A stretch of 64,000 bases of DNA from Candidatus Omnitrophota bacterium (lineage in GTDB: Bacteria; Omnitrophota; Gorgyraeia; Zapsychrales; Fredricksoniimonadaceae), in assembly GCA_030650275.1 (NCBI GenBank), contig JAUSEK010000015.1:3834-67833 (forward strand), in the 5' to 3' direction. Below are positions 1 to 57,711 of the stretch, piece by piece (within the stretch, counting starts at the first letter, position 1; every line of letters begins with the position of its first letter). The notes under the pieces were generated by a model that was not told the DNA's origin, did no database searches, and was given only the letters and a program-made list of their open reading frames with translations. A program made the position numbers and the translations under genes.

Positions 1-3000
1 GGTCCATCGGCAGCCTCTACGCCAGCCGTGCCGGGAAGGGCGCGGGTGGGGTCTTTTTTATGTCCGTAGTAGCTATGTCTCTGGGCAAATCTATGCCAGT
101 TGCCCGGCAAGAACGACGCATCCAGTGTCTCCCGGTAATAGCTGGAAGACACATCCAGATCGATCCACGGATTCTGGATCAAATGCATATCGAGCTTCAC
201 CCGCTCATCCGCCGAGAGATCTCCTGCGCTAACCATCCGCCGCTGGATCTCACCGCGGATCGACAGGATCCCTTTAAGGACTGTCCTACTGCCTGCTCCA
301 TTCGCCACCAGCGGTATCTTGTTTATCTCCACAGCATCTCTGGCCTGAGCTGCGGCCGCTTCTTCATCTCCGCCCGCCTTCCTGGCATCTTTTCTCGCGC
401 TCTGCTCCGCTTTTGCCTTCTCACGCTCTATGTACTCATGCCGTCTCTGTAACTGCCCCGGGTCCAACTCCACATCCTGTAACCCCACAAACTCCCCATA
501 CAGCGCTCGCTGCATCCATCCATCTATGATCTGATGCATCCCATGGTTGATCGCATCTTTATACACATCCATTTTCCCTAAATGTTGCGCTGTATAATGC
601 CTTACTCTTTTTTCTTCTTCCGTACTTAACAAATACACTATTTCTACCCTGCGGCCGGTATTTAACTCCAGCAACCGGAGCATCTCTTCGAATCCTTCTA
701 TCTCACTATCCTCTTCACTGCCTAAATCTGTATACCTTAAGATCGGGAAGGTATCGCGGAACGTCTCTTGCGCCAATCTGTGTCTGTCCGCCGATGGGAC
801 CTGTGCGTCCGCGCTCACCTTCTTGTAGTCGATCTTCCCCTGGATCCTCATGACCACAAAATCCAGGCCCAACACATACGCTGACATCAATGCGATCAGC
901 GGATGGCCCCAGACCAGCGGATTCGCTGTGATCGGCAAATATCCTACCCGCAATGGCCTGCTTCTTAACTCATAGAGCCGCTCGTCTTGCACGTCTGTCC
1001 CATACTTCATCGTTCTAAACTTGACAAACGGCTCCGTCTTGCCTTCTCTGGCCTTTTGTGCCAAACCTTTTAGCGCCATTTCCATCGCTATATACAACCG
1101 TGGAACGAAGTGCTTGGATGTCCAATCTGTTCGCCCGGGGTTCTCTTCATAGAGACGCCTGATCTCTTTGACTTGTTCCCTTAGGCCATTCGTCCCTGAT
1201 TCAATCTCACCGCGGATATGTGCCCACACCGACTCCACCGCTCTCGCGGCCTCTTCCTGCCGATGTTCCAAATTCAAACTGATGTCCACACGCCCATTGC
1301 CAAACGGCAAGTCTGCCCATTCCCAAATACCATCAGTCACAAAGATAAACGTATATTGGAAGCCTTTGTTGACTTTAACTGTGGTCTCATAAATCAACTG
1401 TCCATTTCTCTCCCTTACAAACTTAAGCGGCCCACCCTCCTGCCTCCAATTCTGTTGATCCTGGTCTTTATTCGTATACAGCATCACTTCTCCCCGGAAG
1501 GTCTTCGCATACGTGACCGCCCTTAATACCACTTCATCCCCGGACAGGGCCTGTTTGTGCACTTCATCGATATATCCTCGCCTTAACCGACGGCCGATCT
1601 CCTGTTGCCGGGAAGTGTTTTCTCCCTCACTAAGGTTGAATTCAGGGTACGCGCCAATCTCATGACCGAGGCTCAAAACCTGTTCTTCGAGGGTGTTGTA
1701 ATCGGGATAGTTATTGCTGATGATGAGGTATTGCTGACCGTTGCGGGTGACAATGGTGGCTAAGAACCCTTTCACGGGACCGGCGCGGACCAGGCCGGCT
1801 ATGGCCATCTGTCTTAAACATTCGGCCATATGCGCGGCACCGATGGCTTCCAAAGCCCGGATCGCCAGTTTCACCGCAGCGCTGTTCTCATCCAAAACTG
1901 CGAAAGTATTGATGTCGTGCCGGCTCATTTCGAGGTCGACTTCCTCCTGGCTCAACAGCTCTGTGTCCGGTAAACGGCGGGTGGGGTCGCCGGTAGTATT
2001 GGCAGCATCAACGGCAACACTTTTTATGGTCCTGACGATATCTCTGTGACTAAACACCATCCTCATGGTGCTGTTGCCGCCCGCTGCATGGGCCAATTCG
2101 TCCACACTTGCCGCCTTGATCTCCGCCACCAAATTCCCGTCCACAACACCCATATCTGTCATCTTCCTGATGATACCGTCAGCATTCTCTTCCACCTGCA
2201 CGATGTAAACATCCACACTTTCACGCACAATACCCTGATGCTCATGCGAATACCGGTATATGTCATCTACAAATCCATCCATATGCCCTGGTATTCCTTC
2301 CTTAAGATGCGTCCCGGCCGAGATTGTGTTGTTTTCAAGCCACATATCGATCCCTAAGGACCTTGCCAGAATTCCGGGATCTGTCCCGCGCGCGCTGAAG
2401 AATGTGCGGCGCCCCTTGGCTGTTGCGGTGCCCTGGCCCCGAATATAATGGATCAGATGTCCTTCCTTGGACACGATCACGAAAACCACCCTCTGCTCCC
2501 AAGATCCTTGAGGAGCCAATGCTGCCGCGGATGGATCCGCGGATGCTGTGCTGGGCAAGGCAGGGGTGTGGGCGATGACCGATTGTGCAGCCGGCTTCTT
2601 GCTCCCCCACATCTCATGCTCAATCGCATATTTATACCAACGGGAAGGCAATAAGGCACTTGCTGCCGGGTGGCCCTCTTTTAACTTCTCCCGCAACAAG
2701 GTCGAGGAGATGTTTAAGTCCACATCCGGACCTTTGATCAAAAACATCGGGATGTCAGAGGTCGCATAAGCACTACCCATATCCTCCCGCGTAGCCTTGA
2801 CCGCGCTGTGGATCGTATCGATCCCTTTTAATGTCTTCGGTCTGCCGCTCCCATTGGTCAGCGGTATCCCTGCCTTAGCGTCATGCTCAGCTTTTTGAAC
2901 AGCTTCCTCTATTTGTACCGGTTCAAGACCAGATTTCTCTGCCTTTGCTTTGGCCTTTGCTTTTTCTGTAGCAATATACGCGCTTCTTTTTGCCAGCTGA

Positions 3001-6000
3001 TCAGCAGTCAACGTCACATCTGTTAATTCCACGAATTCCCCATACAAGCCTCTTTGGATCCAGCCCATGGAGATCCGATGCCGCTTGCTATCAAACCGAT
3101 GTAAATTCTTGCTCAACATCTCATAATGCAGGCGTATGTAATGCTCCACCCTTACTTCTGTCTCGGTGCTGAGCAAATACACAATATGCAGCCTGCGGTA
3201 TTTGTTCATCGCAAGAAGATTAAACATCTCTTCAAAGCCTTCCACCACTCTTTCTTTTTGCGTCCTAGGATCAATGGGCAGATCTTCACTGCCCAAACTC
3301 GTATAACTAAATACCGGCCGCAACCCTTCCCTGATATCCTCTTGCAACAGCCTATGCCGGTCTTTCTTGGGCGCCAAGTCCTCCGGGGCCATCGGCTTAT
3401 GAATCGCTCCCTGACCGCGTTTGACCAATCTATCCGCCATTACCTGATTACCGCTGGCCAACAACACCCACGGGTGACCATATACTTCAGGGTTAGCCGT
3501 AAGAGGAAAATACGCCACTGTCGCTTCTTTGAGCGGTACGAGCATAAAGAACATCTTAGTCAACCACTCAACCAGCCAGTTGCGCTTGATCAAACTCACC
3601 GGTGCAAACACGTTGATCTTCCCTTCCCTGGCCAAGCGCGCGCGTTGTTCTATGCCTTCCTGGAACACCCTAAAAAGATTCTCGGACACTATGCGCACTT
3701 CACTGCCTTCCGGCTCCTGCATGGCCGCCTCATAACCCGGCCTCATGTCTTCTTCTATGTACCGGGCTACGCGGTTGATCCTTTGCTCCTGCATGATCCG
3801 ATAGGATTCCCTCACAGCGCCGCGGATGCCTAACTCCGTCATCTGCTTGAATTTTAAAATGAATCGCACGCCGGCACCGACCCAGTCCGTGCGGGCTTCC
3901 AGCCGATGCTCGTATTGAGCAAACAGATGTTCTTCGTGCAGATTCTGATCGTGGGTGCCGTTGTTGCTTTCGTGAACAAGAGTGTAACTAAAGAAAGAAT
4001 TGTCGTTAATGGCGATCAGAATATACTCTAAACCATTGACCCGGACATGCGCCCCGTAGGCTGTTCCCATGGAACCCGCACGCACACGGCCGGCTTGCAT
4101 TAAGGCGCGCAACTTATCGGCTTTGTCTTTCTGTCCGGCAGCCTGATGATACAACAATACCTTTTGCGCGTCTTCCATCTGCTCATACACCGCCTTCCAA
4201 CCATGTCCGTGGATCGTGTTGCTTTCGATCAAGTGACGCGCTTCCGCTTCCACTTCACCAGCTGTATGGCCGGGACGGGGTTTGGCAGGATCGTTCGTTG
4301 TAGACGGCTGCCAGGTCCAATCGGATCTTTCACGCATTATTCTCTTAAAGTTTTCCGCAATGGTCTGTTCCTGCTCTGCTGTCAACGGCCTCTTTTCTCC
4401 AAAGGCAAACGGCAGGCCGCCCAGGGAATTTGCCCAACCCGCGGCCCCCATCAAGAGGTCCGACTCTTCCAAAAGGTGATAAACTCCACGACCAAACTGC
4501 GGGATGGTCGGCTGGATCGCCATCTCAAAGGTGCCGTCCTCGTGAATGCGCGCCACGATCAATGCCGTAAGACCGTGGCGATACATGTCCAAAATGTCCT
4601 GATGGGCCTTAAAGACGATCGCTTCCAGATCTTTTCCGAGATAAAAAAGCGCTCTGGCCGGCCAGCCGTTCAATTCGCCATAAACCATATCTTGACCGGC
4701 CGCTCCGGTCCGACGGAAGGTGACAAGGCCGGAATCAATGGCTCTCCAGAGCGGATTCCTCATCGGAGCTGAATGAGTATGCCAATGCCCTCCCTGGCTG
4801 GCCCCACCGCCCTGACCATTGGCCCAGGATTCGAACTCTTTACCGCGGGCGGCAGTAAACAACAAAAAGTCGCGCAGTCTATCAGCATCATCAAAAGTCA
4901 GGGCAACTCTGTCCTTGGCCAGCAGCATGATATGTCCCCGGGCCCACTCGCCGATCACCGTCGTTATGAAATATTCATGGCCTGTACCGCCCTTGGCAGG
5001 ACCGATGACCTGAAAATTTCTGCGCACATTAAAATCACACATGGGGCAATCTGTGTCCGGATGAGGAACATTGACCCTCACCCGCGACGCACCGGCATCT
5101 GCGGACTCCAGCGCTCTTATTTTCTGGGCTTCTGCATTTTTAGCCAGCGCTGCGGCTTCATGCGCCGGTGTGGCATAGCGGACCAGGATGCCGGTCGGTG
5201 TGCGGTGAGGATGGAAGACAAGGACCAGCGGAATGCCGTCTTCAGTCCTGATATCAACTTCATTGCTATGATCGAACCGATGGATCATTTCACCATCGGG
5301 GCCCATCTGCTCTGCGGCTGTTTCATAGCCCCTTTGGATCTCCGCGTCGGCAAAACCGACATTGTGTCTGGCGCGGGCCAGATCAATTGATGTCTGACGG
5401 CGATCACTTTCAACCGCGGGCGGCTGCCAATCCCAATCGGAAGCGTTGCGCATCATTTGTTCGAACCGGTCCGCCACGATCCGGCGTTGTGTTCCATCCA
5501 ATTCCTGGGCAGGACCAAAAGCATACGCCACACCACCCGGGATCCGGGAAGATCCGTTGCGGGTGGATATCAATTCCGGACCAAGCGGCTGCTCAAGCAG
5601 GTATGTTACACCGGACATGGCACCCAATTTTCTTGGACCGATCACCAGTTCATAAGTCCCATCATTCAATACACGGGCATTGATGGCGGGGGTGCTATTA
5701 TGATTATATAGATCTCGTAGATCTCTACTTGCAACCTGGACCAATTTTTGGACATTTTTACCTCTGTATATCCTCACTCTCGCCGGCCATCCCTCCATCT
5801 CACCGAACACCACATCGGATCCGAAAAATCCAGGATTCACAATAGTGACCTTACCGCTATCAATGGCCTTCCAAAGCGGAGAACGGAGCGCGGCGGAATG
5901 AAAATGCAGATGCTTGCCTTGTCTGGCGCCGCCCCCTGGGGCATTGGCCCAAGTTTCATGATCGCTGCCGCGTGCCGCGGTAAAGAGCAGCAAATCGCGC

Positions 6001-9000
6001 AATCTATCGGCATCAACGAACACCTGGGTGACTTTATTCTTGGCAACAGCCATGACCATCTCACGGCCATATTCACCGATAACTGTGGAAATAACGTACT
6101 CATACCCCACCGGGCCGACCGCGCGGTCCATGATCTGCCAAGGTTGTTTCGCATCAAAATTACACAACGAACAATCAGTGTCGGAATGGAGCATGTCAAC
6201 CGTTGTTGGTTCAGGCTGCCCATTACCTGCCAATGTCCGGCCCGGCAGGAAGGACAGCACGAACCGGACGCCATTTGTAGAAACAATTTCCACATCAGTG
6301 GAGGCATCATATGGATGGATGTTTGTTCCATCCGCGCCCTCTCTGGCCGCGGCGCGATCATAGCCATTGCGAATTCTCGCGGCAGCAAATCCTATATTAA
6401 CTTCAGCATCAGCCAAACTAATTGATGCCTGGTCTGCTTCCGCTTCCAGCCATCCCCTAGCTTTGTCTTCTCTGATAGTATTAGTTCCATCATCGTAGCC
6501 GAATGCGCTGCCGATCTCATGGGCGAGGCTCAAGACCTGTTCTTCGAGGGTGTTGTAGTTGGTATGGTTGTAGTCGGAATAATGGTCGCTGATGATGAGG
6601 TATTGCTGACCGTTGCGGGTCACAATAGTAGCTAAGAATCCTTTGACAGGGCCGGCACGGACCATGTGGTCTCTGGCCATCTGTCTTAAACGTTCGGCCA
6701 TATGCTGCGCGCCGATGGCTTCCAAGGCCCGGCTGGCTAATCTTACTGCGGCATTATTTTCATCCAGCACAGTGAAGGTATCGATGTTGTGCTGGGCCAT
6801 TTCAAGGTCAACTTCCTCTTGGGTCAACGGCGTTGTACCCGGCAAACCACGGGTCGGGTCATTGCGGGCCCCTCGACCATAAGAACCTTTCAATCCATAA
6901 GAAACATTTTTCAATAAACCAAAGGGTGTCAGAATAATACCTATAAGGACCAACGGCATTAAAGTCAGCAGCCCATGGATAAAGATCAGAAGCCGGTCAA
7001 TGCCTCCGGTCACCCGTTTCCCGTCCGTCACACGGACAGTCGTGCCGCTGACTAAAACCTTGCCCCAGTTTCTAAATTCATTAACCACGATCCCCAACCA
7101 CCCGAACAGGCCGACATCGTACGGCGTGGAACCGGGATTGTAGAATGTTGCCGAATAATACGTGGACAAGAAATACATAAACACCGGCCAGGACAACCAT
7201 TGCGAATCATTGTGATAAAGCCACAAGCCAAGGCCGCTAAATGCCATGCCCAGCAAAGCCGGTGACAGATGCGATCTCTCAAACGTTTCATACGTTGTCG
7301 GCTGCTGTTCATTAACAGCGTCATGAAGAACAAAATAGCGGTGTTCAAGGCCAAGCGTCCTGCCGGATCCCACGTATTTGGCATCGCCTCTCTGGGCCGT
7401 GTCCACGCCCTGCTTGTGGACGGAAACGAAGAACTGGAAGAATGGTGAGGTCATTAGAAGATATGTGACCCATTGATCAAATCCTGGGCTAAGCAGAATA
7501 ATGGCCAGCGGCGTGAAAGCCAGCAAAGAGATGGCCCCGTAATAGTATAGGCCTGATAACACAGCCAACTGGGCCAGGAACGGTACATAATTTCTCATTT
7601 GTATCCTGCCCAAATGAACGACCAGGATCGCAACAGCATAGGTTGCCAGAAGCGTCATCCACAGTGGAGCTGTCCCGAACATCATGACCGCCACCTTGCC
7701 AATAATAAACCACTGCACCGCCAGAGGGACCATTCTTCGTTTCTCGATCGTACCCAAAAGCCCGTGGTCAAAAATGAGCCGTACCAGCCCCGTCAACGTC
7801 GCGGCCTGGGAATAGATGATGCCGACAATGGCCAGCGATATTTCAAGAATGAACGCGGCAAAACCGCTTAAGCCCAGATAGACCAGGAATCCGGCATAAG
7901 AAAGGTTCGAGTTGTGCACGTGCGGCTCTTTGGTGTAGAAGCCGGTGCCGCCGAAGAAGTGCGTCAAATTGCGCAGGCGTCGGGTCACAAGATTGCCATA
8001 GACCGGTGCGTCCCTTAAATTTCTGGCCGGTTCAGAATGATATTGCTGCGCGCCGCCGCCGCCAAACTTGCTGTTCTTGGCCGCAACCCCCATAAGGCTG
8101 ACTTCACGGGCCTTGCCGGCCTTGGTATAGTAAATGAGCCTGACCTGCTTGCCTTTGGCCGTCCATTCATAGCCGGAGGGAATGTCTTCATTGACCACAT
8201 AGGCCTTGGTAATGCGGCCGATCATGTCCGTATAATTGGTGTCCCACCAATCCGGGTGACCATATTGATACCTCTGCTTACCAACCATGTCCTGGCTGGT
8301 TTGGACGACCAGGTTAAAGGTGCGGTCAGCATGCGCGTCAGCGGCGCCTTCGACAGAAATGTGCTCGGTAAAGATAAATTCAGGAAGCCCCACATTGATC
8401 ACATTGTTGTGTCTGAATTCCTGCGAGACATTAGGCGCCAGGAACGCGTCCTCGATGTAAACATCCTGGTTCTCATCCATGCCCTGCATATGCCGAACCC
8501 GGACAAACGGCTGCATGTTGATCTGGTTCGCCGGTTTGCCCTGGAAGGAAACCATCCTACCCGAATATTCCAAACGCATGATCACATGCGTCGGCTGACC
8601 CAAGGCATCGATGTCCCCTGCCCTGAAATAAACGCTGTTGCTGTTGGCGATCTTGTTGACCGTCTCCATATAAACGATTTCCAGATTGGAATAGATCTCA
8701 AACAGGCGAAGATAATGCGCCAGCAATTCCGGTCTGGCGGAAATGCCCTCACGCGGATTTCCAGCAATGCTTTCCCAGACCTGGAAGCCCAACAGCGGCT
8801 GGAATTGGTCTTGCACGCGCTGATGGACCATCGCCTGCCATGCCGCTTCGGAAGCATAGATGCTGCGGTCGTGGTAATTGATCTCAGCCAAAAACGTGAG
8901 GGCCTCTTCATAATGCATGATGCCGCGCACGGTGCGGCCGATGGTCTGGAACCGGGAAGCGGCCCACATCTGCACTTCAAATTTCACCCACGGATGTTGA

Positions 9001-12000
9001 ATGATCAACGGCTGTCCGCGTCTTAAATTCTCCATATTCTCCAAATCCCGCACGATCTGCGGATCCGTGACAAAACCATTGGCGTCCCTGCCGCCCGGAG
9101 CATCGTTATGGCCTCTCATGTTGATGCCTCTGGACAAACGCCGGATCACATTGCGCCACTGGTTCGGGGTCAGATCGATCATGTAAGTCAAATTCGTATG
9201 CCGGCCTTTGTCACGACGAATGTTGAGCTGGTCCAAAAGGAGATCTTCATTGGCATATTTGGGTATTCCCACACCGATGGAAATCTCATCAAAATCCGGC
9301 GCCTGTGGCATATCCATGGTGAGCTGTTCATAGATCGCATATATCCTGCGATAGACATCCGCATCCTTCGGGGCCTTGCTAAGATCGGGCCATTGAATGA
9401 TCACACCGTTGAGCCTGTCATTGCCAAGGCCTTCCCCTTTAATCTTGAATAAATAGGCTGCCAGCTGACCTTCGGACATTTCGTCTCTGATATTCATGCT
9501 TCTCATCTGGGCATTCCACCAGATGGCAAAGGCAATGTCTGTTTGCTGGGGCGTCAAGCGGCCGACGGATCCCGGCAAGACCTTGGTGACGAAATTCCTG
9601 CGCAAAGTGCCGCTGTGCATGGCCAGCCGCACCCTCCACCAAAATGGGAAGATGTGTTTACCGACATAGGCCAGTTTTCCGGCAGCGAGAATGGCCTGGG
9701 CCGCCTGGAACAAAGAATACAGAGACAGGACGTGATAGAAAATGAACGGCAGCCACAAGATCACCTTGGCCATGGTGCCGCCGACGAAATATCCGAGCAC
9801 GAACCAGCTGCCGAACACCAACGCCATCACCGGTAACGGGGCGATCAGGGACACAACGGCCCATGCCACGCCCTTCTTTTGGTCCCAACCAAAATTCTGG
9901 GCGATCTTAACTTTCAGCAGGATATAAACGAAAAAGAAAAGGATGCCATTCGAAGGCGACCGCAGATAACGCAGAAGTCCCGGGAAATCAATGTAGGCAA
10001 AATAGTCAACCGCATTGACCGCATCCAGGACGTAAGGAATGACATAATTGTTCCATTCATAATGAACAAAAGAAACAGCCGCCCAGACGAGGACCATGGT
10101 CAGGGTGTTCCAGAATTGTTTCGGGGCGGGGATGCCTTGGTAGGGCGGGACCGGTTTACCATAAAGTCCTGTACCGGCCGTTTTACTTCTGGGCGCTTGC
10201 CATATGTGTTCGATCACCTTGAAAAGAGCATAAAATCCGCCTAGGACCACGGCGATCTTGACAGCCGGACCCTGGCCGGCATTGTGCCAAATGGCGGCAA
10301 TGAACGTCAACGCCGCGTATTCATAAATCCCGATGTTGGCCAGGGTGGTCTGAATCCAGCCCTTCCAGCTCAAGGCCCCGCCCATCATTTCATTGTAGGT
10401 TTTATAAGGCGTCAGGTGGGCCGGAAAATTATTGCCTTGGGCTATGGTGGTGGCCGGGTCCCAATGAACGCCGCCGTTCCAATAATGAGCCAAATAAGCT
10501 TTGATATAATCAGGCGTCCTGAAAAGGCCTTCCATGTTGTCATGATTGACATATCCGGGCAGATAACCGCCTCTTTGCGGTTGGGACCGCATCCACACCG
10601 ACCATCTCCGGGCTTCGGCTTCGATCGCAGCGCGCACCTGGACCGACCGTCCTTCCGCAACCATGTGGCGAGCCAGGTGGAACAGGAACCATGTGACGTC
10701 GGAGGAAGCGCGCATTTCATCCGCGATCATCAGCACAGCGAAATAAATCCTGAGATCTTCACGGGTAAAGACCATGCCGCTCGCATCAATGCCCATGACC
10801 TCCCTGAGTAACCACAAATACCGTTCAAACAGATCCGGGGAAACCGTGTGGTTCGTCATCACGGCCGGAGCGCTCATCCGCTCACCAAGCGTCTTTCTGA
10901 CCTTCATTTCCATGCCGAAATGTTGGGACGGCGTCAAACCGAAGCTGGGCTCCAACGGCGCACCGGTTGAGATCTGCCGGAATGAAACCCTTCTGCCGGG
11001 ACGGGCCCCTCTGATGCGATTTATATGCTTGGCGAGCCAGCCGAGAAGGAAGGCGGCTGCGGCCGCTGCGACCAGCACTTTAACGAGCGTCAGCAGAACG
11101 GTGCCCTGCTCCTGTAATTCTTTTATCCAGCTGCTGCGCAGATCGGTGCGGACTTTGGGATTTTCTTTCGCCAATTCTCCGTTGATATACCTGTATTGCT
11201 GTTCATGCCAGACCCCCTGGATATTGACGCCCCCCGAAACAGGTTCTTTTTCATAGACCTGGACGGCGGTGGCCATGTCAAAATCGGTCCTGCCGAGATC
11301 GGCATAAGGAAGCGCCAGCGGATTGGGATCACCCTGGTCGGTATGGGCCGTAACCGCATATTCGGAGTGACGATAAATTTTGACCTTGTCCGTTTCTAAG
11401 ATCTGTCCAACATCGGCAGGCGCGGCCTGTTTGAGGACCAGGGCGGAAAAGACCGGGTTCTCAAATTCATTGATATATGTGATCTCATCCTTATAAGGAT
11501 CAATGAGGGCCCCCTGATTGAATACAGCCAGAGGCGTGATAATGTGCAAACCGGCTTCAAGAACTTTGCGCCCGGTGAAAAGATTATAGTAAACGGCCCG
11601 TTTGAACCGGTCGCCACGGACATCATAAGCCAGGAGTTTATTCCCACCGACCTCGGTAGTCCCCCGGAAGACCTCGCGCGTGGGGCCTTCCCCGCTACGG
11701 AACAGTTGAATGTTCTGCGGCATGATGTTGGACGAAGGCAGATCGGTCAAGGACACGATACTGCGCAGGTCCGCCGTAGCACGGTGCATCCACCAGGTAT
11801 TGATGGTCATGTTCCCGGCGGAGGTGATGACGGCCAATGAACGCCCGTTGCTGTCGAAACGACGCAGGACCTGAAACGAAGGCCTGGTCCACACCCCGGC
11901 CATGGTGCCGCCGAGGTTACGGGGCTGGTTCTGGTCACGGATCATGATCAGTGAGGTGTCCGGAGTTATGCCTTCCTGCTCAAGGTCCTTCCATAGGTCC

Positions 12001-15000
12001 CTGCCGGTCAAACCATTGATGGCATTGACCGCCGCCGGAGTGAATATGTCTTTGGCTGCCCGGCTCAAGCGGATGTCACGGCGTTCCACGCCGTTCAAGA
12101 AATCTTTCTTCTCCACGATCTCGTAATTCTTGTTTAAGGTGATGGACTGCGTGACCTCACCGGTGATCGCGTCAAAGTCAAGCGCCACCACGGTCTGGTC
12201 AATATTCCCCATGGCATCGTAATGCACGGTCACGAACCGGCGTTCCTGCACGTCGAATTTCTTCTTGAAATCCCTGAATTCTTTGCCTTCCACGCTGACG
12301 ACCGGGATGCGCTCCATGACCGTCAATGCATTGATCCCGAAACGGGCAAAGGCCCGAACGATCTCGGGGAATTTCATCAAACGCTCATACCCCATCCCGT
12401 CCCTGGCGGCCTCCACATCCACCTCGCCGAGGATCTTGCGGACAGGCATCCACGTCGTATCCCGGCGCTCGGAAACCCGGCGTTCTTGAAGCACATTGTT
12501 TTGGTCATACACACGGTCATCATTTTCAAACCAGTCTATCTGCACCGGGCCTGCCCAGACCTGATCGGCATTGTTCAGCGTCCCGGGCAAACGCATGATC
12601 CCCTTGGTCTCCTGCAGTTTCAAGCCGTCCGGCGTAAAGACCATTCTCACGACTAAGATGAATTCCCCAGGTCTTGCGCCATTAAGCCGAGCATCATCAA
12701 CAATGATCCGGCCGTTGTTTTCACCGATACGGACCACGGAGATCGCGTCCTTGAATTGGACATTACCGACGGTCAGATCCAGTCCTTGGTGGTCTTCATG
12801 CAAATTGTCTAAGTAAATGCGTCTGGGCGTCGTGGCCGCGCGCGCGAAATCACGAACAACCGGCCATTGGGCGGCCGGGACACGAACGCGGATCTCCACG
12901 CCTGGAATATTCAAATAAACGATCGACTGGGTCATGGGTTCGATGCGGCGTATGGGCTTGTCGGCGGTTGCGTCCGGATAAATGTCAATGGTCACCGTGT
13001 CCTGTTGGAAATTCTGGCTGGCAATGACACGATTGCCCTCTGTTACGGTCGGGTCCAAACGCCGCGCCTCCGCCAAGGTCAAGGGCCGATTGTGGCCAAT
13101 GTGAATGGAAAAATCAGCGTAAGGGTATTGACCATCCGCTCTCCTGGTCCCATATAGCGGATAAATGTCCGAGCTTCCGTCGGCATATACCACTTCCCGG
13201 CGGGACGCTTCCTTGTTGGCCGCAAAGTAATAACGCTGCCTGACTTTATAATCCGGGCCAAACACCGTGAAAGTCGTGTACTTGGTGCGCAGGACATCAT
13301 ACGCTGTACTGGCAATCCGGGTGGCCTGCGGCGGGGCAATGACCGGTGCCACGGGAGCGATCGACTGTGCCGTCGTGGGTGCAGAAGATTGTGCCGGCGC
13401 GGTCTGGACTGCCGTAATGCCTAAGTCCCTGATCGCCTGTTGTAAGGCCGCACCTGTAGGTTTGGCCGCACCGCTAAACAACTCACGCAAGGTCCAGAAC
13501 GCCTCCCTGGGCGTGCCGTTGGCATCAATGATCCCCCACCATTCTTCATTGGCAACACCATCGTCCGGTAATCCGGGTAAAGGCAGACCGGTCGTATCCT
13601 GAATATTTAAATTGGCATTCTCATTGGCCTTCCACAATTCATCCCGGCCGCCGCTCATATAGGTGACGCCTAAGAAAATGCTGGGATCAGCCCTGGCCAT
13701 CAGCGTCCGTTGGATGTCGCGCAAGGCACCGGCTTGCATGTTCTGGTCTTCACGCCGGGTCCGTGCGTTATACGAATCCGTCCCAGCTTCAGAGATGTAC
13801 ATCTTCAAATTCTTGTTGATACCCGGAGTATTCAGAATGCCGCGCCACTGATCAATGACGCCGGAATCATCCCTGCCGCGGTACATATTGACGCCCCAGA
13901 CATCCACCGACGGTACCTGACGGACAACGCCAATGGTCGGGATCTCGCCATGGGCCGTGGAAACCCGAATGGCCGGGGCGATCCCCTTGGACTCCCGTGC
14001 CGCCTGCTCCAACATCCTGTACCAGTTGTTGACACTGCCGTTAAACCATTCCGGATGATAGTTGTACTCATTGCCGAATTCAAACATGGCGATCGCCGGA
14101 TGATTCCTGTAGGTGCGGATATAGTCCTTGTAGCGTCCGCCGGAAATATCATATTTATCAGCCGCCGAGATAAAGCGATCATCGAACGACGGGAACCCGA
14201 TGATGGCCTTGATACCGTTCTGGGCCAGGGCATCCAGGAACGCTTTGGAGGTGATCGGATAATAGGTGCGGATGACGGTCATGCCCGCGTACTTCATCCA
14301 TTTGACGTCGTTGATATGACGGTCCCAATTGATGCCGGTCCTGCGGGTTTCCCCTTTGGGGATCGGGCTATAGGTGATACCGCGCAAAGGCATAGCCGCG
14401 TTCACCGTAGGAGCCGGCGGCGTCTGCGCATAAGCAGATAACGGACCAAATATGTCACCAAGAACGCGCCCGATCTGACTTAAAAGATTGAACGGTTGTG
14501 ACTTCGCAGGCGCGGTAATAGGCGCAGGAACAACGACATGCTCTGGATTCCCGACAGAAGCATTCGGGAATGACAAACTGGGCGACATGGCCGGTTGAAC
14601 GGCGGCAGCCGGTCGGGCGGCAGGAGCAGCCGGGGTAGCACCGGAGACCTTGTGCCCGCCCAATAACATGGGATCATATCCAGACACTGCAAAGCTATAA
14701 TAAGTGCCGCTGACTAAGGCCGCATAGGCCCTGGAGGTGATCGTGTCAAATCCGGTACTAACGACGGCAGTATTACCGGCGGCGTCCACCGCATAAGAAG
14801 CTGTCAGTGCACCGCCGTTGGTCTTAAAGAACCCGGCCAGCGACCGTACCAGGCCTTCATACTTGGCCTTATACTCCTGGGATTTGGCTGTGTTGCCGAC
14901 ACTGGAAAATTCCTGAGACACGGCAAGATAACGCAAGGCCAGTTGCGACGACCATTCGATGGAAATGACCTGTTTCCTGTTGCGGTAATCGATGCCAAGC

Positions 15001-18000
15001 AGGGTCGTGCCATTATAAACACCGGCGCGCTGTTCCACCACTTGCAGCATTTGCTCGATCTCAGTCAAACGCTGGGCACGGGTAGCGCCGAAGCGGGCGT
15101 CGTTAAGCATTCTCTCCAGCGGTGACCAGCTGCTGGTATCGCTGGCCCACAGTGATTCCGCGTCTTTCACCCAAGCGCTACCATTCCACACCGCACCTCT
15201 GGAGAAGGTGTGTGTCGCCGGATTATACATGCCCATCACCCAGCCATAGGCCCTATTGCCCGCCTGCAAATATTGATTGTCCCTGGTCGCCTGATACAAC
15301 ATATCGAAGAAGGCCACGGCGCTTTCATTGTTCTCGGTGGACTTGATGTTCCAGTAGAAGTTCCGGTCGCTATTGGGACTGAACTGTCCCCTGGGTCCCA
15401 TGCGGATACCGCCGTCGGTGTCCTGCATGCTGATCAGGAACGCCGCCCGTTCTCTGGCAAAACGCAGGGCCGCCGCGCTGCGTGTACTGTTATAGTTCTG
15501 CACACCGCCCATCCCGATCCACGCATTGGGGCCGGCATGCGCCGAGAAGTCCCAATTTGTATACCACTGACCAACAAAATTGCCGGTACGGATATTATTT
15601 AACACCGCCCCGTTGGGCTGATAATCTCCCGGACGCGGCATGGTCTGCGGATTGCTGGCCCCGTTGGCCGCTGTCAGGTTGCGGGCATAGGCATTGAGTA
15701 TCCTGTTTTGTCCGGCGATCAACAGCAAAGAGGCATCATAGGTATAAATGTTGTTGCTGGTATAAAGGGCCGGATCACCGTAGAAACTGTTGGGCATGCC
15801 TGTTGCCGCGTTGACCCTGCTGGTAAAGAACTGAAGGAATTGACGGCCTGACGCCGCATCAGGTAATGCCGCTGGCAGTTGTGCGGCGGCGACAGGGGTG
15901 GCTTGTCCGCCCGCAGGTGTCGGTGTGGTCACAACCGCAGCAGCAGCCGGTATGGCTGGAACGGCCATGGCACCTGGTATCGGCATGGGGGTCCGCCGCA
16001 CAGGAGCCACGGTACGTGGAGCCGTGGGAAGCATCGGGATCGGACCGACACCGCCAAGATCACGGAAATTAAAGAACTCGAAAGCTCCGGTAACATTGTT
16101 ATAGGCCATGGGATGTGTCTGCCAATACTGGTCCATTCTGTCCCAGATCGCCGGGCTGGATAATTCCTCCGCATCGATCATGGATGCATTCAGCGGACCG
16201 TCCACCAAAAGGACATTAGCTAACACCGGCTTGTATCCCCTGGCTGCCCAAGCCGCATTGTTACGGACCTCGGCGTATTCGATCTCTTCGCTAGGATCGG
16301 GCTGGCCGTTCCCATTGGCATCCCTGTAATACGGATAGCCCTTTGATCTTTCCCGCAAATGGACCTGGGCGAACGGACCGCGCTTGGCCGCCTCCGATAG
16401 ACGCAAGGCGCGCTCGAATTGGCCTTTGATGACAAAGCCGATCACCACTTTATCAGGATCATTCTGTTCACCGGGGTTGGCCATCAATGTGAACATGATC
16501 GGTGTATCATCAGAAGCGGCCCTATATGCGGCCGCGCTGAGATTGTTGACACGAAAATATGTCTCAATGAACGCGTTGAGATCGTTGAGGCCTTCGATCA
16601 GCCCCTGACGGGTCGAGTCAATAATAACGGGATATGGACTGGCCAGGGCAGGCCCGAACAGGGCCGGCGTGTCTTTGGACAAGGTGAGCATTGTATTATT
16701 GTCGCCCAGATCGATCTCCTGTGTCCCTTTAAGGAACTTATGGCGGCCGTCGGCGCCGACGTAAATGGCCGGGGTAGCGGTCTTCAGGTCCGCGGGTTCA
16801 ATGCGGCGGGTCTGGTTAATGATCGCCCCGGCTCCAACCGCAGCTTTCCGGAAAGTTTCTGTGCTGATGCCCGCCGGGACTTTCCCATCGAAGAAAATAC
16901 CCGCGGCCCGGAAATTGTTCTGCAGATACCGATATTTCTCAAATTCTACCACGTGTTTGGCGTATTCGCCGATGGCCCCTGACGGCGTCATCTCAATGAT
17001 GATAGGATAGTCGCTCTTGTAGGCCGGGGCCAATTTTTCCGTGTCTTCGCCCACCACGATCATGATCTTGCCCTCGCCCAACGGAATGCGCACCGAGCCG
17101 TCCGGAGGGTTGAACCAGAATCGGGTGCCGTCGAAGGTGATGTGGTTCCTTTGTACCTTCTGCGGGTCTTTTTTGTAGAGCGCTTCCAGCACCCAGATCA
17201 ACTGGTCGTCTTTGCGGACGCCGCGGCTAAAGACCACCTCATCAAGCCCCGCCGGCTCCCGTCCATCCGTATGTCTGCCCAAAGCATAGGAACGTTCTGT
17301 GAGGGCCAACATGTCGCGGATAAACTCGAAGGAGTAGATGACGATCTCGCCATCCAGGGTCACGTCCGCCAGCGGCCGCAACAGTGGGCCTTTGACGAAG
17401 ATGTGTATTGTGCCGTTGCCTTTGAGGATACTGTCAAAAGGCACGTTGGTGGATAAGAGAAAAGGCAGTAGACGGGCCACGCCCTGGCGCTGGAGAACAC
17501 TCTTGTTCGTGTCAGGGCCCTTGCCCAGCAGACGCATAATGTCCAGATCAACCGAAGCGCGCGGCTGGCCGCTGGTGCTGCTGCCGGCGGAGACGGTCAC
17601 ATCCTTAAATTGGGTGTTCACGTTCACGGTGGCGGCCAGCGGCCCCTGTCTGCCGCGGTCAAGGCCGATGGAAAGGCTCATCCAGTTACGGTCAATGATC
17701 TTGGTGCTGACGCTGTAAGCATAAAATCCTTCATCATATTCCCCGTGGAGATTCACGCGGTACACGGTGGCGTTCAATTCGGTCTTGTTCTTGTTCAGGG
17801 CCTTGTCAAAATTGAATGTCACCAGCCCGCCCTTGGCTTTAATTCCGGCACCGACGGAAGGATATATTTCGGAACGCTTGCCGAAGATCGTGTCATTCTC
17901 TGCCCGGCGGGTCACGCCGGCACGAACCATCAAATTCTTATTGATGTCATGCACAAAGCCCATGTTCTGGAAATTGTATCTGTCATTCACATCCAGAGTG

Positions 18001-48368: not shown

Positions 48369-48612
48369 GTTGATTCTGTCGTTTTGGCTCATTAGTTTTT
48401 GCTATTTTTTGGATAAAGGATTGTCAATAACTGAAGTATAACACATTATATATAAGCGGCAAATTTTTGCAAAATTTTTTACGCATTTATTTGCTTATAT
48501 TGCAATAGGTTACGTCTTTTCTCCAAAATTTTTTAAATATATTCCAAAACTTTGTTCTTATAAGTAATAAAAATATTAAGAAAGCGTTTTCTTTGTGAGC
48601 ACATGACTTACG

Positions 48613-48851: not shown

Positions 48852-49490
48852 ATGGAATTCAATGAGTTTCTCAAAAAATACCAAAACCTGCCGCTTTTAA
48901 ATACTGATCTCCTTTTGACCGGAGAAACGGATCCCCGCTTATTACGGGTCCAGCTGTCGCGTTGGGTCAAAGCAGGGCATCTCTTTCGATTGAAACGGGG
49001 AGTCTATGCTTTTGCGCCGCACTTTCAAAAAATTCTCCCTTCGCCCTATCTGATCGCTTCAGTCCTGACCCGGCCATCCTATGTGAGCCTGGAAAAAGCC
49101 CTAGAATTCCATGGGCTCATTCCGGAGGCGGTTTTTACGGTCACATGTGTGACCACCAAAAGGCCGGGCCGGTTTGAAACACCGCTGGGGAGGTTCAGCT
49201 ACAATCACGTCCGGCCGCAATTGTTCTGGGGGTATGCTTCAGTCCTGCTTGAGGACCAGTCCGGATCCATGGCCCATCCGGAAAAAGCGCTTCTGGACCT
49301 TATTTATTTAAAGGCGCCGCGACTGACCAAAAATTATCTGGAGGGGCTGCGGCTGCAAAATTTTGAAAAGATCAACGCCGGTAGGCTGCTGGAATACGGC
49401 CGCAGGTTCAAGAAACCGCGCATGCTTCACGCGGCCGGGATGATCATCGCATATATGAAAAAAACGGCATCCACGGAGAAAAAACTATGA
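48852..49490 (+). CDS. abiEi: AbiEi-family antitoxin/transcriptional regulator (type IV toxin-antitoxin), with an N-terminal AbiEi_4-type winged HTH.
   Basis: The 212-aa product MEFNEFLKKYQNLPLLNTDLLLTGETDPRLLRVQLSRWVKAGHLFRLKRGVYAF… matches the AbiEi N-terminal domain pattern. Its stop overlaps the next gene's start by 4 bp (ATGA at 49487-49490), as is usual for AbiE operons. Confidence 0.75.
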   Translation: MEFNEFLKKYQNLPLLNTDLLLTGETDPRLLRVQLSRWVKAGHLFRLKRGVYAFAPHFQKILPSPYLIASVLTRPSYVSLEKALEFHGLIPEAVFTVTCVTTKRPGRFETPLGRFSYNHVRPQLFWGYASVLLEDQSGSMAHPEKALLDLIYLKAPRLTKNYLEGLRLQNFEKINAGRLLEYGRRFKKPRMLHAAGMIIAYMKKTASTEKKL

Positions 49491-51228: not shown

Positions 51229-51250
51229 GGCTATCTCCCGGTAATTGTCA

Positions 51251-51317
51251 TTCCCGAATGCTTCTGTCGGGAATCCAGTGCATTAGTGTCTGGACCCCCG
51301 ACAAATACATTCGGGGG
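51251..51317. repeat. Two related 23-nt hairpin elements in opposite orientation between tadB and tadC: TTCCCGAATGCTTCTGTCGGGAA (51251-51273) and CCCCCGACAAATACATTCGGGGG (51295-51317).
   Basis: Seen directly in the sequence. Each element has 7-bp G/C-rich stems. Together they form a larger imperfect inverted repeat. Confidence 0.45.
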
Positions 51318-51331
51318 TGACAGCGCTAATA

Positions 51332-52186: not shown

Positions 52187-52215
52187 GATACCGCGCTCCT
52201 AAACATGTGTTTTCA

Positions 52216-57673: not shown

Positions 57674-57711
57674 GCTTTCTCCGACTGTACGGGCGACCCG
57701 GCGGGTCGCCC

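What the first reader, a model, noticed from the sequence alone, without database searches (positions are those of the whole stretch)
6950..10900. Eukaryote-type GT48 (FKS/callose-synthase-like) beta-1,3-glucan synthase core embedded in the giant protein
Direct translation gives the blocks DENQDVYIEDAF, QYGHPDWWD and YVVNEDIPSG. These are arranged like the conserved Fks1/CalS blocks (QDNYLEE, HYGHPDF, LHLNEDIYAG). They are flanked on both sides by TM-helix clusters, as in FKS. GT48 is essentially a eukaryotic family. A bacterial copy fused into a giant protein is highly unusual.
Basis: partly seen in the sequence, partly recalled or inferred. Interest (0 to 1): 0.85.

Follow-up and report, generated by a model that had tools for sequence, protein, structure and literature searches.

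The report
Bacterial FKS-type glucan synthase in giant protein

Summary
One stop-free frame runs from 48401 to 1 (at least 16,133 aa, open at the low end). All three quoted motifs are in it, at 8477-8442, 8267-8241 and 8201-8172.

- Pfam Glucan_synthase (PF02364) matches at E=2.7e-44, 152 bits against a cut-off of 37.
- The only solved relatives are yeast FKS1/FKS2 (sequence E=6e-20; Foldseek E=2e-25, TM 0.55 on a pLDDT 79 model). GT2 synthases trail at E of about 1e-6.
- The mutationally validated FKS1 residues K1082, D1102/N1104, E1155, H1195, E1221/D1222 and K1246/R1248 are all present. They are essentially invariant in 51 bacterial homologues.
- Profile-profile comparison shows that both flanking TM bundles are homologous to the FKS/CalS ones.

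The module (aa 12,234-13,838) is a shuffled cassette found in large or giant proteins of Omnitrophota and Elusimicrobiota MAGs. Roughly 75 clusters at 50% identity carry it, and nearly all named members are annotated "hypothetical". They separate from all eukaryotes in a distance tree and are equidistant from plants, fungi and algae.

The most likely function is a UDP-sugar-dependent processive glucan synthase and exporter. The product and its role are untested. I found no paper describing bacterial GT48.

The parts
1..48392 (-). Giant ORF. The stop-free frame runs 48401->1. The first ATG is at 48392, with an alternative at 48368. It is at least 16,130 aa and its C-terminus lies beyond the window.
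   Evidence: no stop in 16,133 codons. Composition is uniform along the gene.
47541..47774 (-). N-terminal Peptidase_C39-like domain (aa 210-287), following an N-terminal TM helix (aa 49-67).
   Evidence: Pfam PF03412 E=4.8e-7, 30.1 bits against a cut-off of 22. TM helix. This is the N-terminal hallmark reported for Omnitrophota giant proteins.
6888..11702 (-). The whole conserved GT48 cassette (aa 12,234-13,838). This is the block shared with other bacterial giant proteins.
   Evidence: blastp of the giant protein against 20 other GT48-bearing large proteins. The block is collinear with L002, L003 and P0025, and similarity outside it is only scattered.
11043..11099 (-). Single TM helix that opens the cassette (aa 12,435-12,453).
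   Evidence: KD hydropathy 2.56. A TM helix sits at the same place in P0001.
10416..10772 (-). Soluble region before the TM bundle (aa 12,544-12,662). It carries FTREDLRIYF and HDNMEGLFRTPDYIKAY and aligns weakly with the eukaryotic FKS1_dom1 region (YDDxNExFW).
   Evidence: hhalign N-flank alignment. There is no Pfam hit even at E<=10, so this homology is tentative.
9666..10334 (-). N-terminal bundle of six TM helices (aa 12,690-12,912). It includes HYEWNNYV (10064-10041) and ILWLPFIFYHVLSLYSLF (9761-9708), which correspond to FKS1 TM6.
   Evidence: AF2 helices plus hydropathy. hhalign bacterial against eukaryotic N flanks gives Prob 99.3, E=2.5e-20, with controls at Prob <=0.3. phmmer alignment to FKS1 starting at residue 684.
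7932..9665 (-). GT-A catalytic domain (aa 12,913-13,490). The Pfam PF02364 match covers nt 9371-7911.
   Evidence: Pfam E=2.7e-44. FKS1 7xe4_F E=5.9e-20. AF2 pLDDT is mostly above 90 here. Foldseek FKS1 E=2e-25.
8523..8546 (-). FQGKPANQ: K13289 and N13292, equivalent to FKS1 K1082 and N1085 (UDP-Glc binding).
   Evidence: K is present in 51/51 bacterial and 89/89 eukaryotic cores.
8442..8480 (-). MDENQDVYIEDAF: D13309-E-N13311, equivalent to the FKS1 D1102-A-N1104 'DAN' motif.
   Evidence: D and N are each present in 51/51 and 89/89 cores.
8364..8387 (-). LPEFIFTE: E13341, equivalent to FKS1 E1155.
   Evidence: present in 51/51 and 89/89 cores.
8241..8270 (-). YQYGHPDWWD: H13382, equivalent to FKS1 H1195.
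   Evidence: H is present in 51/51 and 89/89 cores.
8172..8198 (-). VVNEDIPSG: N13404-E13405-D13406, equivalent to FKS1 N1220-E1221-D1222 (the catalytic ED motif on the finger helix).
   Evidence: E is present in 50/51 and D in 51/51 bacterial cores.
8097..8120 (-). AGKAREVS: K13430 and R13432, equivalent to FKS1 K1246 and R1248.
   Evidence: both are present in 51/51 bacterial cores.
6879..7928 (-). C-terminal TM bundle, about 8-9 helices (aa 13,492-13,841). It contains GDAKYVGSGRTLGLEH (7388-7341) and FYNPGSTPYDVG (7145-7110), which match the eukaryotic GGAKYxATGRGF and FNP motifs. It is the presumed glucan channel.
   Evidence: hhalign C flanks give Prob 99.8, E=6.6e-29 over 238 columns, with controls at Prob <=0.3. 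AF2 helices and hydropathy. The Foldseek alignment to FKS1 spans 1272 columns.

Best explanation
Window nt about 11702-6888 (minus strand) encode a self-contained FKS/callose-synthase-type (CAZy GT48) processive glycan synthase cassette. It sits at residues about 12,234-13,838 of a membrane-anchored protein of at least 16,133 aa, in an Omnitrophota-like bacterium.

The cassette has five parts in order:
- an anchoring TM helix;
- a soluble region;
- a six-helix TM bundle;
- a cytoplasmic GT-A catalytic domain carrying nine of the residues shown by mutagenesis to be needed in yeast Fks1 (four other tested positions differ);
- a second TM bundle of about 8-9 helices.

By homology with Fks1, the catalytic domain would bind a UDP-sugar (most likely UDP-glucose) at the cytoplasmic face. 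It would add it to the growing chain through the DxN and ED motifs, and thread the polymer (most likely a beta-1,3-glucan) through a channel formed by its own TM helices. In a diderm bacterium the polymer would emerge into the periplasm or at the cell surface.

Shown here: homology, fold, motif conservation, architecture and taxonomic spread. Inferred: donor sugar, linkage, direction of export and biological role. The role could be an envelope or matrix glucan, or a polymer used when this presumed episymbiont or predator attaches to host cells.

The confidence of 0.75 is for the statement as a whole, that is, an active processive glycan synthase of GT48 type. GT48 homology alone is about 0.97, and beta-1,3-glucan as the product is about 0.5.
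For: - Pfam PF02364 E=2.7e-44, 152 bits. It is the only strong enzymatic domain in the protein.
- PDB sequence search returns only FKS1/FKS2, E=5.9e-20, aligned over FKS1 residues 684-1272.
- AF2 model with pLDDT 78.8 and pTM 0.82. Foldseek gives FKS1/FKS2 as the top 13 hits, best E=2e-25 with TM 0.55 over 1272 columns. GT2 synthases (BcsA, HAS, CesA, Chs) follow only at E of 3e-6 or weaker.
- Fks1 residues whose mutation abolishes function (PMC10499315; PMC12715860) are present in the window and conserved in 50-51 of 51 bacterial cores: K1082, D1102, N1104, E1155, H1195, E1221, D1222, K1246, R1248.
- Both TM flanks are homologous to the eukaryotic ones: hhalign Prob 99.8 with E=6.6e-29 and Prob 99.3 with E=2.5e-20. 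Swapped-flank controls give Prob <=0.3.
- The context is bacterial. Tad-type pilus genes and an AbiE toxin-antitoxin pair lie next to the gene. The closest relatives are Omnitrophota MAG proteins at 38-44% identity. There is no compositional break across the cassette.
Against: - No biochemical evidence exists for any bacterial GT48.
- Three Fks1 active-site positions differ, in the window and in most bacterial homologues: D1080 is Q or E, K1172 is A or G, and E1173 is D. Fks1 E851 aligns with N, with an E one position later. Substrate or product could therefore differ.
- The profile-profile match to the eukaryotic C-terminal region covers only its first half, template positions 17-289 of 515. 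The channel may be built differently.
- The window copy has a two-helix insertion of low model confidence at aa about 13,550-13,600.
- Nothing shows that the 16,000-aa ORF is translated as one chain, or on which side of the membrane its other parts lie.
Confidence: 0.75

Rival explanations
1. It is an active GT48-fold processive synthase that makes something other than a linear beta-1,3-glucan. It may use a different UDP-sugar or form a different linkage, or it may glycosylate a lipid or protein acceptor.
For: - Lineage-specific substitutions occur at product- or donor-contacting positions: D1080 to Q/E, K1172 to A/G, E1173 to D, and E851 to N in the window.
- The bacterial clade is only 29-33% identical to any eukaryotic core.
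- In the related GT2 superfold, small changes switch between cellulose, curdlan, chitin and hyaluronan (PMC6821405; the fold neighbours).
Against: All characterised GT48 enzymes are beta-1,3-glucan synthases (PMC3797821; PMC12715860). The core DxN, ED, H and K/R residues are identical.
Confidence: 0.25
2. It is a degenerate or non-catalytic relic. The GT48 fold would be kept only as a membrane anchor or scaffold inside the giant protein.
For: Most of the giant protein has no recognisable domains. The window copy is among the more divergent members: DEN instead of DMN or DIN, and an extra two-TM insertion.
Against: Nine catalytic residues are conserved in 50-51 of 51 bacterial cores, although mean pairwise identity is only 35%. 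That pattern indicates purifying selection on catalysis. The window has all nine.
Confidence: 0.05
3. It is an artefact: a eukaryotic FKS/CalS fragment assembled chimerically into a bacterial contig, or a very recent transfer from a eukaryote.
For: GT48 is otherwise known from eukaryotes only.
Against: - The frame is uninterrupted for 16,133 codons.
- GC, GC3 and codon usage of the cassette lie within the range of the rest of the gene.
- The same cassette sits inside long ORFs on independent contigs from several studies (L002, L003, L004, L005, P0034, P0066, P0100 and others).
- Bacterial cores split from all eukaryotes in 136-163 of 200 bootstraps and are equidistant from plants, fungi, algae and holozoans.
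Confidence: 0.01
4. It is really a GT2 family synthase (BcsA- or CrdS-like, the usual bacterial route to beta-glucans) that merely resembles GT48.
For: GT48 and GT2 processive synthases share the cellulose-synthase-like fold. GT2 enzymes appear among the fold hits.
Against: No GT2 Pfam family is matched. The PDB sequence search finds only FKS1/FKS2. Foldseek E-values are 2e-25 for FKS1 against 3e-6 for BcsA. The motif set (DxN instead of DxD, YGHPD, NED) is the GT48 one.
Confidence: 0.01

Closest known systems
Fungal Fks1/Fks2 beta-1,3-glucan synthase (CAZy GT48; PDB 7XE4, 8JZN, 9WZU)
   Same: - GT-A catalytic domain inserted between two TM bundles.
- Identical K, DxN, E, H, ED and K/R catalytic residues.
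- Six TM helices before the GT domain.
- Conserved AKYxxxGRG and NP motifs after it.
- Best sequence and fold match.
   Different: - About 26% core identity.
- Bacterial host.
- A cassette of about 1,600 aa embedded in a protein of more than 16,000 aa, not a free-standing enzyme of about 1,900 aa.
- No Pfam-detectable FKS1_dom1.
- Only the first half of the eukaryotic C-terminal TM region is matched.
- Rho1 is a eukaryotic GTPase, so regulation must differ.
- D1080, K1172 and E1173 are substituted.
Plant and algal callose synthases (CalS/GSL, GT48)
   Same: Same family and architecture. The bacterial consensus motifs GKPENQNH and D(M/I)NQD match the plant versions more literally than the yeast ones do. 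The profile of the bacterial modules scores a diatom and plants at E=1e-81 to 1e-60.
   Different: Plant enzymes carry Vta1 and FKS1_dom1 N-terminal domains and a longer C-terminal TM region. Bacterial cores lie outside the eukaryotic group.
Omnitrophota giant proteins ('Archaeovorins'; West-Roberts et al. 2023 bioRxiv; 2026 bioRxiv complete-genome survey)
   Same: - Multi-kiloresidue single ORF.
- N-terminal TM helix plus a C39 peptidase-like domain.
- Scattered TM helices, and pilus or secretion genes next door.
- Closest homologues are from Omnitrophota MAGs.
   Different: Those papers report GT1, GT5 and starch-synthase domains, methyltransferases, HEAT, SecA-like and dockerin domains. Their main texts do not mention GT48, glucan synthase or PF02364. 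This protein lacks most of those Pfam domains.
Bacterial GT2 processive beta-glucan synthases (BcsA cellulose synthase, CrdS curdlan synthase)
   Same: Same superfold and the same general mechanism: a cytoplasmic GT-A domain coupled to a TM channel. CrdS makes the same class of polymer in bacteria.
   Different: They belong to a different CAZy family. They use DxD and QxxRW motifs with metal dependence, where GT48 uses DxN and is metal-independent. They are far weaker fold matches (E of about 1e-6) and give no sequence match.

Membership tests
CAZy GT48 / Pfam PF02364 Glucan_synthase | Significant match to the family profile, above the curated threshold | tested here: met
   152 bits against a gathering score of 37.2, E=2.7e-44, profile positions 3-496 of 819. 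The relative P0025 matches positions 12-681.
CAZy GT48 / Pfam PF02364 Glucan_synthase | Closest solved structures by sequence and by fold are FKS1/FKS2, not GT2 enzymes | tested here: met
   phmmer finds only FKS1/GSC2, E=5.9e-20. Foldseek on the pLDDT 78.8 model gives FKS1/FKS2 at E=2e-25 to 4e-19, with the best GT2 hit at 3e-6.
CAZy GT48 / Pfam PF02364 Glucan_synthase | Catalytic and substrate-binding residues validated in yeast Fks1: K1082, N1085, D1102-x-N1104, E1155, H1195, E1221-D1222, K1246, R1248 | tested here: met
   All are present in the window: K13289, N13292, D13309/N13311, E13341, H13382, E13405/D13406, K13430, R13432. Apart from N1085 (N in 37 of 51), they are conserved in 50-51 of 51 bacterial cores.
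CAZy GT48 / Pfam PF02364 Glucan_synthase | Remaining Fks1 active-site residues: E851, D1080, K1172, E1173 | tested here: not met
   E851 is N (with E at the next position), D1080 is Q, K1172 is A and E1173 is D. D1080 and K1172 also vary among eukaryotes, where they are mostly E and Q. These residues are therefore not family-defining, but they matter for specificity.
CAZy GT48 / Pfam PF02364 Glucan_synthase | GT domain inserted between an N-terminal TM bundle and a C-terminal multi-TM channel region, both homologous to those of FKS/CalS | tested here: met
   hhalign gives Prob 99.3 (N flank) and 99.8 (C flank), with swapped controls at <=0.3. There are six helices before the GT domain and about 8-9 after it.
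CAZy GT48 / Pfam PF02364 Glucan_synthase | Complete eukaryote-type C-terminal region (TM13-17) and N-terminal FKS1_dom1 / accessory domain | tested here: inconclusive
   The C-flank match ends at template position 289 of 515. FKS1_dom1 is not detected by Pfam even at E<=10. Only a weak profile-profile alignment runs over the YDDxNExF region.
CAZy GT48 / Pfam PF02364 Glucan_synthase | UDP-glucose:1,3-beta-D-glucan glucosyltransferase activity (EC 2.4.1.34) | not testable with these tools
   This needs biochemistry. No bacterial GT48 has been characterised in the literature searched.
Omnitrophota giant proteins (Archaeovorin type) | Single ORF of more than 10,000 aa with an N-terminal TM or signal segment and a C39 peptidase-like domain | tested here: met
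   At least 16,133 aa. TM helix at aa 49-67. PF03412 at aa 210-287, 30.1 bits against a cut-off of 22. The family is described.
Omnitrophota giant proteins (Archaeovorin type) | SecA-DEAD-like domains, HEAT repeats, GT1/GT5, methyltransferase and NUDIX content | tested here: not met
   Only sub-threshold DEAD/ResIII (E=0.004-0.008) and TPR hits, and none of the other domains. The relative P0185 does carry methyltransferase and nucleotidyltransferase domains.
Omnitrophota giant proteins (Archaeovorin type) | Encoded in a genome of the phylum Omnitrophota | tested here: inconclusive
   The window holds no marker genes. The closest homologues of the cassette are from Omnitrophota MAGs at 38-44% identity. 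However, the cassette also occurs in Elusimicrobiota.
GT2 processive synthases (BcsA/CrdS/Chs/HAS) | GT2 profile match, plus DxD and QxxRW motifs | tested here: not met
   No GT2 Pfam hit. The motif is DxN rather than DxD. These enzymes give only distant fold similarity, at E of 3e-6 or weaker.

The most novel reading that the evidence does not exclude
The bacterial cassettes are not strays from eukaryotes. They would be an old and more diverse prokaryotic branch of GT48, carried in giant proteins of Omnitrophota and Elusimicrobiota. In that case the eukaryotic FKS/callose synthases, whose origin has no known prokaryotic root, descend from such a bacterial module or share an ancestor with it that predates the eukaryotic radiation. 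These bacteria would also make a callose- or laminarin-like glucan with a eukaryote-type machine rather than with the GT2 CrdS route.

The evidence that leaves this open:
- The 51 bacterial and 89 eukaryotic cores split cleanly, with 68-82% bootstrap support.
- Divergence is larger within bacteria (Kimura distance 1.42 against 0.90; 35% against 49% identity).
- Bacteria are equidistant, at 29-33% identity, from plants, fungi, glaucophyte, green alga, diatom and ichthyosporean.

The tree is unrooted and distance-based. An ancient transfer from a stem eukaryote, followed by fast evolution in bacteria, is equally compatible.
Probability: 0.3. Interest if true: 0.9.

Novelty: new variant of a known kind. 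Interest (0 to 1): 0.78.

Why it matters
Beta-1,3-glucan synthase of the FKS/CalS type builds fungal walls and plant callose, and it is the target of the echinocandin and ibrexafungerp antifungals. The literature treats it as a eukaryotic invention, with bacteria using the unrelated GT2 enzyme CrdS.

A conserved bacterial clade with intact catalytic residues would have three consequences.
- It makes the origin of GT48 directly testable, through rooted phylogenies and structures.
- It offers simpler prokaryotic modules for mechanistic and structural work. These have no Rho1 dependence and could be expressed as a cassette of about 1,400 aa.
- It gives the first strong, specific enzymatic assignment inside otherwise opaque giant proteins of Omnitrophota and Elusimicrobiota. 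That points to polysaccharide synthesis and export, not only degradation, as one of their activities.

Tried and rejected
- **The ORF listing** on the plus strand and short minus-strand ORFs. The giant frame is not listed because it runs off the window, and I found it by a stop-codon map. The 329-aa plus-strand ORF at 8037-9026 is an antisense shadow.
- **First AF2 run**, with 23 sequences. It gave pLDDT 52, with the TM regions and the second half of the GT domain unreliable, and was used only as a weak check. It was replaced by a 47-sequence run. A 65-sequence alignment was too large to send.
- **The search for homologous proteins** is limited by its word index. It returned only 3, 20 and 11 hits, so it greatly under-reports the bacterial family. 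The exhaustive HMMER search was needed.
- **Metagenome scan**. It was dominated by eukaryotic GT48. Only L004 (nearly the same as L003) and L005 are bacterial. L006 proved eukaryotic, with FKS1_dom1 and RRM neighbours.
- **Supplement searches** of the two giant-gene preprints found nothing held, or no mention.
- **Exact look-up** of the pilus ATPase fusion protein found no record. The AbiEii toxin matched one 5.3-kb Logan contig from SRR13727527, which gives no taxonomy.
- **PDB sequence searches** of the 2,300 aa on either side of the cassette found nothing.
- **Pfam on the pre-TM region** at E<=10 found nothing.
- **Chimeric assembly, eukaryotic contamination and a GT2 identity** were considered and rejected (see the rival explanations).

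Full report
**1. What is in the sequence**

Table-11 ORF listing of the region shows only short ORFs. A stop-codon map shows why. One frame of the minus strand is open from 48401 down to base 1, which is 16,133 codons, and it continues beyond the window. The first ATG is at 48392.

- DENQDVYIEDAF at 8477-8442
- QYGHPDWWD at 8267-8241
- YVVNEDIPSG at 8201-8172

The one correction is that it lies on the reverse strand. The plus-strand ORF at 8037-9026 is an antisense shadow.

**2. Is it GT48?**

Scanning all 16,133 residues against Pfam gives one strong enzymatic hit. PF02364 Glucan_synthase matches at E=2.7e-44, 152 bits against a gathering score of 37.2. The match covers giant residues 13,011-13,497 and profile positions 3-496 of 819.

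The only other above-threshold family is Peptidase_C39 at residues 210-287.

A sequence search of all PDB chains with residues 12,468-13,934 returns only yeast FKS1 and FKS2/GSC2. The best E-value is 5.9e-20, aligned over FKS1 residues 684-1272.

**3. Active site**

The Fks1 cryo-EM papers list the residues that line the active site and whose mutation kills function: E851, D1080, K1082, D1102/N1104, E1155, K1172/E1173, H1195, N1220/E1221, D1222 and K1246/R1248. They also describe the metal-independent DAN motif and the ED motif (PMC10499315; PMC12715860).

The window carries these equivalents:

| Fks1 residue | Window residue |
|---|---|
| K1082 | K13289 |
| N1085 | N13292 |
| D1102-A-N1104 | D13309-E-N13311 |
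| E1155 | E13341 |
| H1195 | H13382 |
| N1220-E1221-D1222 | N13404-E13405-D13406 |
| K1246 | K13430 |
| R1248 | R13432 |

In an alignment of 51 bacterial and 89 eukaryotic catalytic cores, K1082, D1102, N1104, E1155, H1195, D1222, K1246 and R1248 are present in 51 of 51 bacterial cores. E1221 is present in 50 of 51. Mean pairwise identity among the bacterial cores is only 35%.

The differences are these:
- D1080 is Q or E.
- K1172 is A or G.
- E1173 is D.
- In the window, E851 aligns with N, with an E one residue later.

D1080 and K1172 also vary among eukaryotes. This pattern argues for an active enzyme. It leaves open some difference in how substrate or product is handled.

**4. Architecture and fold**

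Hydropathy finds few TM candidates in the whole protein. They cluster around the catalytic domain.

A first AlphaFold2 model built from 23 sequences was poor, with pLDDT 52. Even so, it hit only FKS1/FKS2.

A second model covers residues 12,651-13,850 and used 47 sequences, both bacterial and eukaryotic. It reached mean pLDDT 78.8 and pTM 0.82. It shows:
- six hydrophobic helices before the GT-A domain (aa 12,690-12,912);
- about eight or nine after it (aa 13,492-13,841).

Foldseek against the PDB gives the 13 FKS1/FKS2 entries first. The best is E=2e-25, with TM-score 0.55 normalised to the query and 1,272 alignment columns. The GT2 processive synthases BcsA, hyaluronan synthase, CesA and chitin synthase follow at E=3e-6 or weaker.

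Homology of the membrane parts was tested separately with profile-profile comparison of bacterial and eukaryotic flanks:
- C-terminal flanks: Prob 99.8%, E=6.6e-29 over 238 columns. The matched motifs are AKYxxTGRG and NPG/FNP.
- N-terminal flanks: Prob 99.3%, E=2.5e-20. The matched motifs are FW...K..WN and LWxPFxxFFxLD.
- Swapped-flank controls: Prob 0.3% or less.

Two limits apply. The C-flank match covers only about the first half of the eukaryotic C-terminal region. The FKS1_dom1 region is aligned only weakly and is not detected by Pfam even at E<=10.

**5. Surroundings and host**

Upstream of the giant gene, on the same strand, are Tad/Flp-type pilus genes. These are a ParA/TadZ-like plus CpaF-like ATPase fusion at 61822-63978 and two T2SSF proteins at 50308-52186. 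An AbiEi/AbiEii toxin-antitoxin pair lies on the other strand at 48852-50290. This is a bacterial context.

It also fits the report that pilus and secretion genes recur next to Omnitrophota giant genes.

GC, GC3 and codon usage of the cassette lie within the spread of the rest of the gene. The N-terminal TM helix plus C39-like domain is the hallmark described for Omnitrophota giant proteins.

The closest homologues of the cassette are partial proteins from Candidatus Omnitrophota MAGs, at 38-44% identity. The window holds no marker gene, so the phylum assignment is an inference.

**6. Relatives elsewhere**

The word-indexed protein search finds very few relatives. An exhaustive HMMER search of 1.84 billion cluster representatives finds 555 proteins at E<=1e-3 and 48 at E<=1e-30.

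The best-scoring hits are long proteins, up to 7,886 aa, with the GT48 region deep inside. The named ones fall into these groups:
- Candidatus Omnitrophota, for example MBI4846161.1, a complete protein of 6,932 aa.
- Elusimicrobiota/Endomicrobiia, for example MDR2427236.1 (7,499 aa) and MCL2798981.1 (5,737 aa).
- One short contig binned as Patescibacteria.

Nearly all are annotated 'hypothetical protein'.

Scans of GTDB species genomes and JGI metagenomes add L001-L005. L002 is open across its whole 21 kb. L003, L004 and L005 show the gene ending 1,000-2,000 aa after the cassette. L005 has ordinary bacterial neighbours: homoserine dehydrogenase and a PLP-dependent enzyme (PALP), probably threonine synthase.

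Counting cores and fragments that score better with the bacterial profile than with the eukaryotic one gives roughly 75 bacterial-type clusters among the top 150 hits.

Comparing the whole giant protein with 20 of these proteins shows that the shared block is aa 12,234-13,838. Outside it, similarity is only scattered. For example, aa 11,325-11,658 recurs in several proteins, but in a different order relative to the GT48 block. The cassette is therefore a shuffled module rather than part of one conserved giant orthologue.

**7. Relation to eukaryotic GT48**

I built a neighbour-joining tree of 140 catalytic cores (310 columns, Kimura distances). It separates 89 sequences from 51.
- The 89 include every sequence with a known eukaryotic source: plants, diatom, yeast, chytrid, ichthyosporean, glaucophyte and green alga.
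- The 51 include every sequence with a known bacterial source.

The exact split is recovered in 136 of 200 bootstraps. A split with all known eukaryotes and no known bacterium is recovered in 163 of 200.

| Comparison | Kimura distance | Identity |
|---|---|---|
| Within bacteria | 1.42 | 35% |
| Within eukaryotes | 0.90 | 49% |
| Plants against yeast FKS1 | not computed | 41% |
| Bacteria against each eukaryotic group | not computed per group | 29-33% |

They exclude a recent transfer from a particular eukaryotic lineage.

They do not give a direction. The tree is unrooted and distance-based, and the eukaryotes were sampled as the best hits to a bacterial query.

**8. Mechanism proposed**

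By homology with Fks1, the cassette would work as follows:
- It binds a UDP-sugar at the cytoplasmic face through the Y/E region, K13289, N13292 and D13309/N13311.
- It transfers the sugar to the non-reducing end of the chain, using E13405/D13406 on the finger helix together with H13382, K13430 and R13432.
- It passes the polymer through the channel formed by the two TM bundles.

The most likely donor is UDP-glucose and the most likely product a beta-1,3-glucan, because all characterised GT48 enzymes make that. In a diderm cell the product would emerge in the periplasm or at the surface.

The biological role is speculative. It could be an envelope or matrix glucan, or a polymer used in the contact between these presumed episymbionts and their hosts.

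Regulation cannot be by Rho1. Whether the cassette acts within the intact 16,000-aa chain, or after cleavage (for instance by the C39-like domain, as suggested for this protein class), is unknown.

**9. Comparison with what is known, and novelty**

The literature available here treats GT48 as a fungal and plant family, and treats bacterial beta-1,3-glucan synthesis as a GT2 (CrdS) function (PMC6821405).

The searches turned up no link to bacteria:
- All 20 papers that mention PF02364 concern eukaryotes.
- No paper combines Omnitrophota, Omnitrophica or Velamenicoccus with glucan synthase or GT48.
- The two preprints on Omnitrophota giant genes list GT1, GT5 and starch-synthase domains, but do not mention GT48 in their main text.

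The sequences themselves are public and carry precomputed Pfam labels. The novelty therefore lies in recognising a coherent bacterial GT48 clade and its cassette-in-giant-protein architecture, not in a new fold. I rate it a new variant of a known kind.

**10. Verdict**

| Claim | Confidence |
|---|---|
| The region is a true GT48 homologue with FKS-like architecture | about 0.97 |
| It is catalytically active as a processive glycan synthase | about 0.75 |
| The product is a beta-1,3-glucan | about 0.5 |

Interest is high. A conserved prokaryotic branch of a supposedly eukaryote-only, drug-target enzyme family bears on the origin of that family. It also gives a concrete, testable function inside giant bacterial proteins. 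The score is tempered because this window is one of dozens of such copies, and because function and evolutionary direction remain untested.

Noticed in passing
window 50308-63978 (minus strand): A Tad/Flp-type pilus gene set lies directly upstream of the giant gene. It comprises a ParA/TadZ-like plus CpaF-like (T2SSE) fusion ATPase at 61822-63978 and two T2SSF proteins at 50308-51228 and 51332-52186. Two large ORFs without any Pfam hit lie between them: 52544-55642 (1032 aa) and 55887-57344 (485 aa). Pilus and secretion genes next to giant genes are reported for Omnitrophota.
   Followed up: partly
window 48852-50290 (plus strand): An AbiEi/AbiEii type IV toxin-antitoxin pair is wedged between the start of the giant gene and the pilus genes. 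The AbiEii protein has an exact match on a 5.3-kb Logan contig from run SRR13727527. That contig also holds the start of the giant gene.
   Followed up: partly
window 47541-47774 and 48201-48257 (minus strand): The N-terminus of the giant protein has a TM helix (aa 49-67) and a Peptidase_C39-like domain (aa 210-287). This is the arrangement described for Omnitrophota giant proteins and proposed there to process the polyprotein.
   Followed up: partly
window ~13428-14428 (minus strand; giant aa 11,325-11,658): A second module of unknown function is shared with several other GT48-bearing large proteins (L003, P0056, P0071, P0141). It sits in a different position relative to the GT48 cassette, which indicates module shuffling. 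It has no Pfam or PDB sequence hit.
   Followed up: no
window ~7602-7754 (minus strand; giant aa ~13,550-13,600): The window copy has an insertion of two extra hydrophobic helices in the C-terminal TM bundle. The insertion is absent from L001 and L002 and has low confidence in the model.
   Followed up: no
window 33513-33701 and 37488-37583 (minus strand): There are sub-threshold DEAD/ResIII helicase-like hits (E=0.004-0.008; giant aa ~4,901-4,963) and TPR hits (aa ~3,607-3,638). The first might correspond to the SecA-DEAD-like domains reported in Omnitrophota giant proteins.
   Followed up: no
window 8037-9026 (plus strand): The 329-aa ORF listed by the mechanical ORF finder lies antisense to the GT48 catalytic domain. 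It is a shadow of the giant frame, not a gene.
   Followed up: yes
P0066, P0065/P0174, P0081; L003 (CAIRNS010000007.1): The GT48 cassette is not confined to Omnitrophota. Complete proteins of 5,737 and 7,499 aa from Endomicrobium/Endomicrobiia MAGs carry it, as does an Elusimicrobiota protein.
   Followed up: partly
P0061 (2,723 aa, ENA metagenome): This protein falls on the eukaryotic side of the tree and has two separate GT48 core matches, at residues 9-200 and 1911-2213. It may be a tandem or fused gene model.
   Followed up: no
P0185 (Candidatus Omnitrophica, 3,566 aa partial): This is the closest named relative of the window cassette, at 41-44% identity. About 700-1,100 aa after its GT48 region it carries a class I methyltransferase domain and a Pol-beta-type nucleotidyltransferase domain. 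No such domains are detectable after the cassette in the window.
   Followed up: partly
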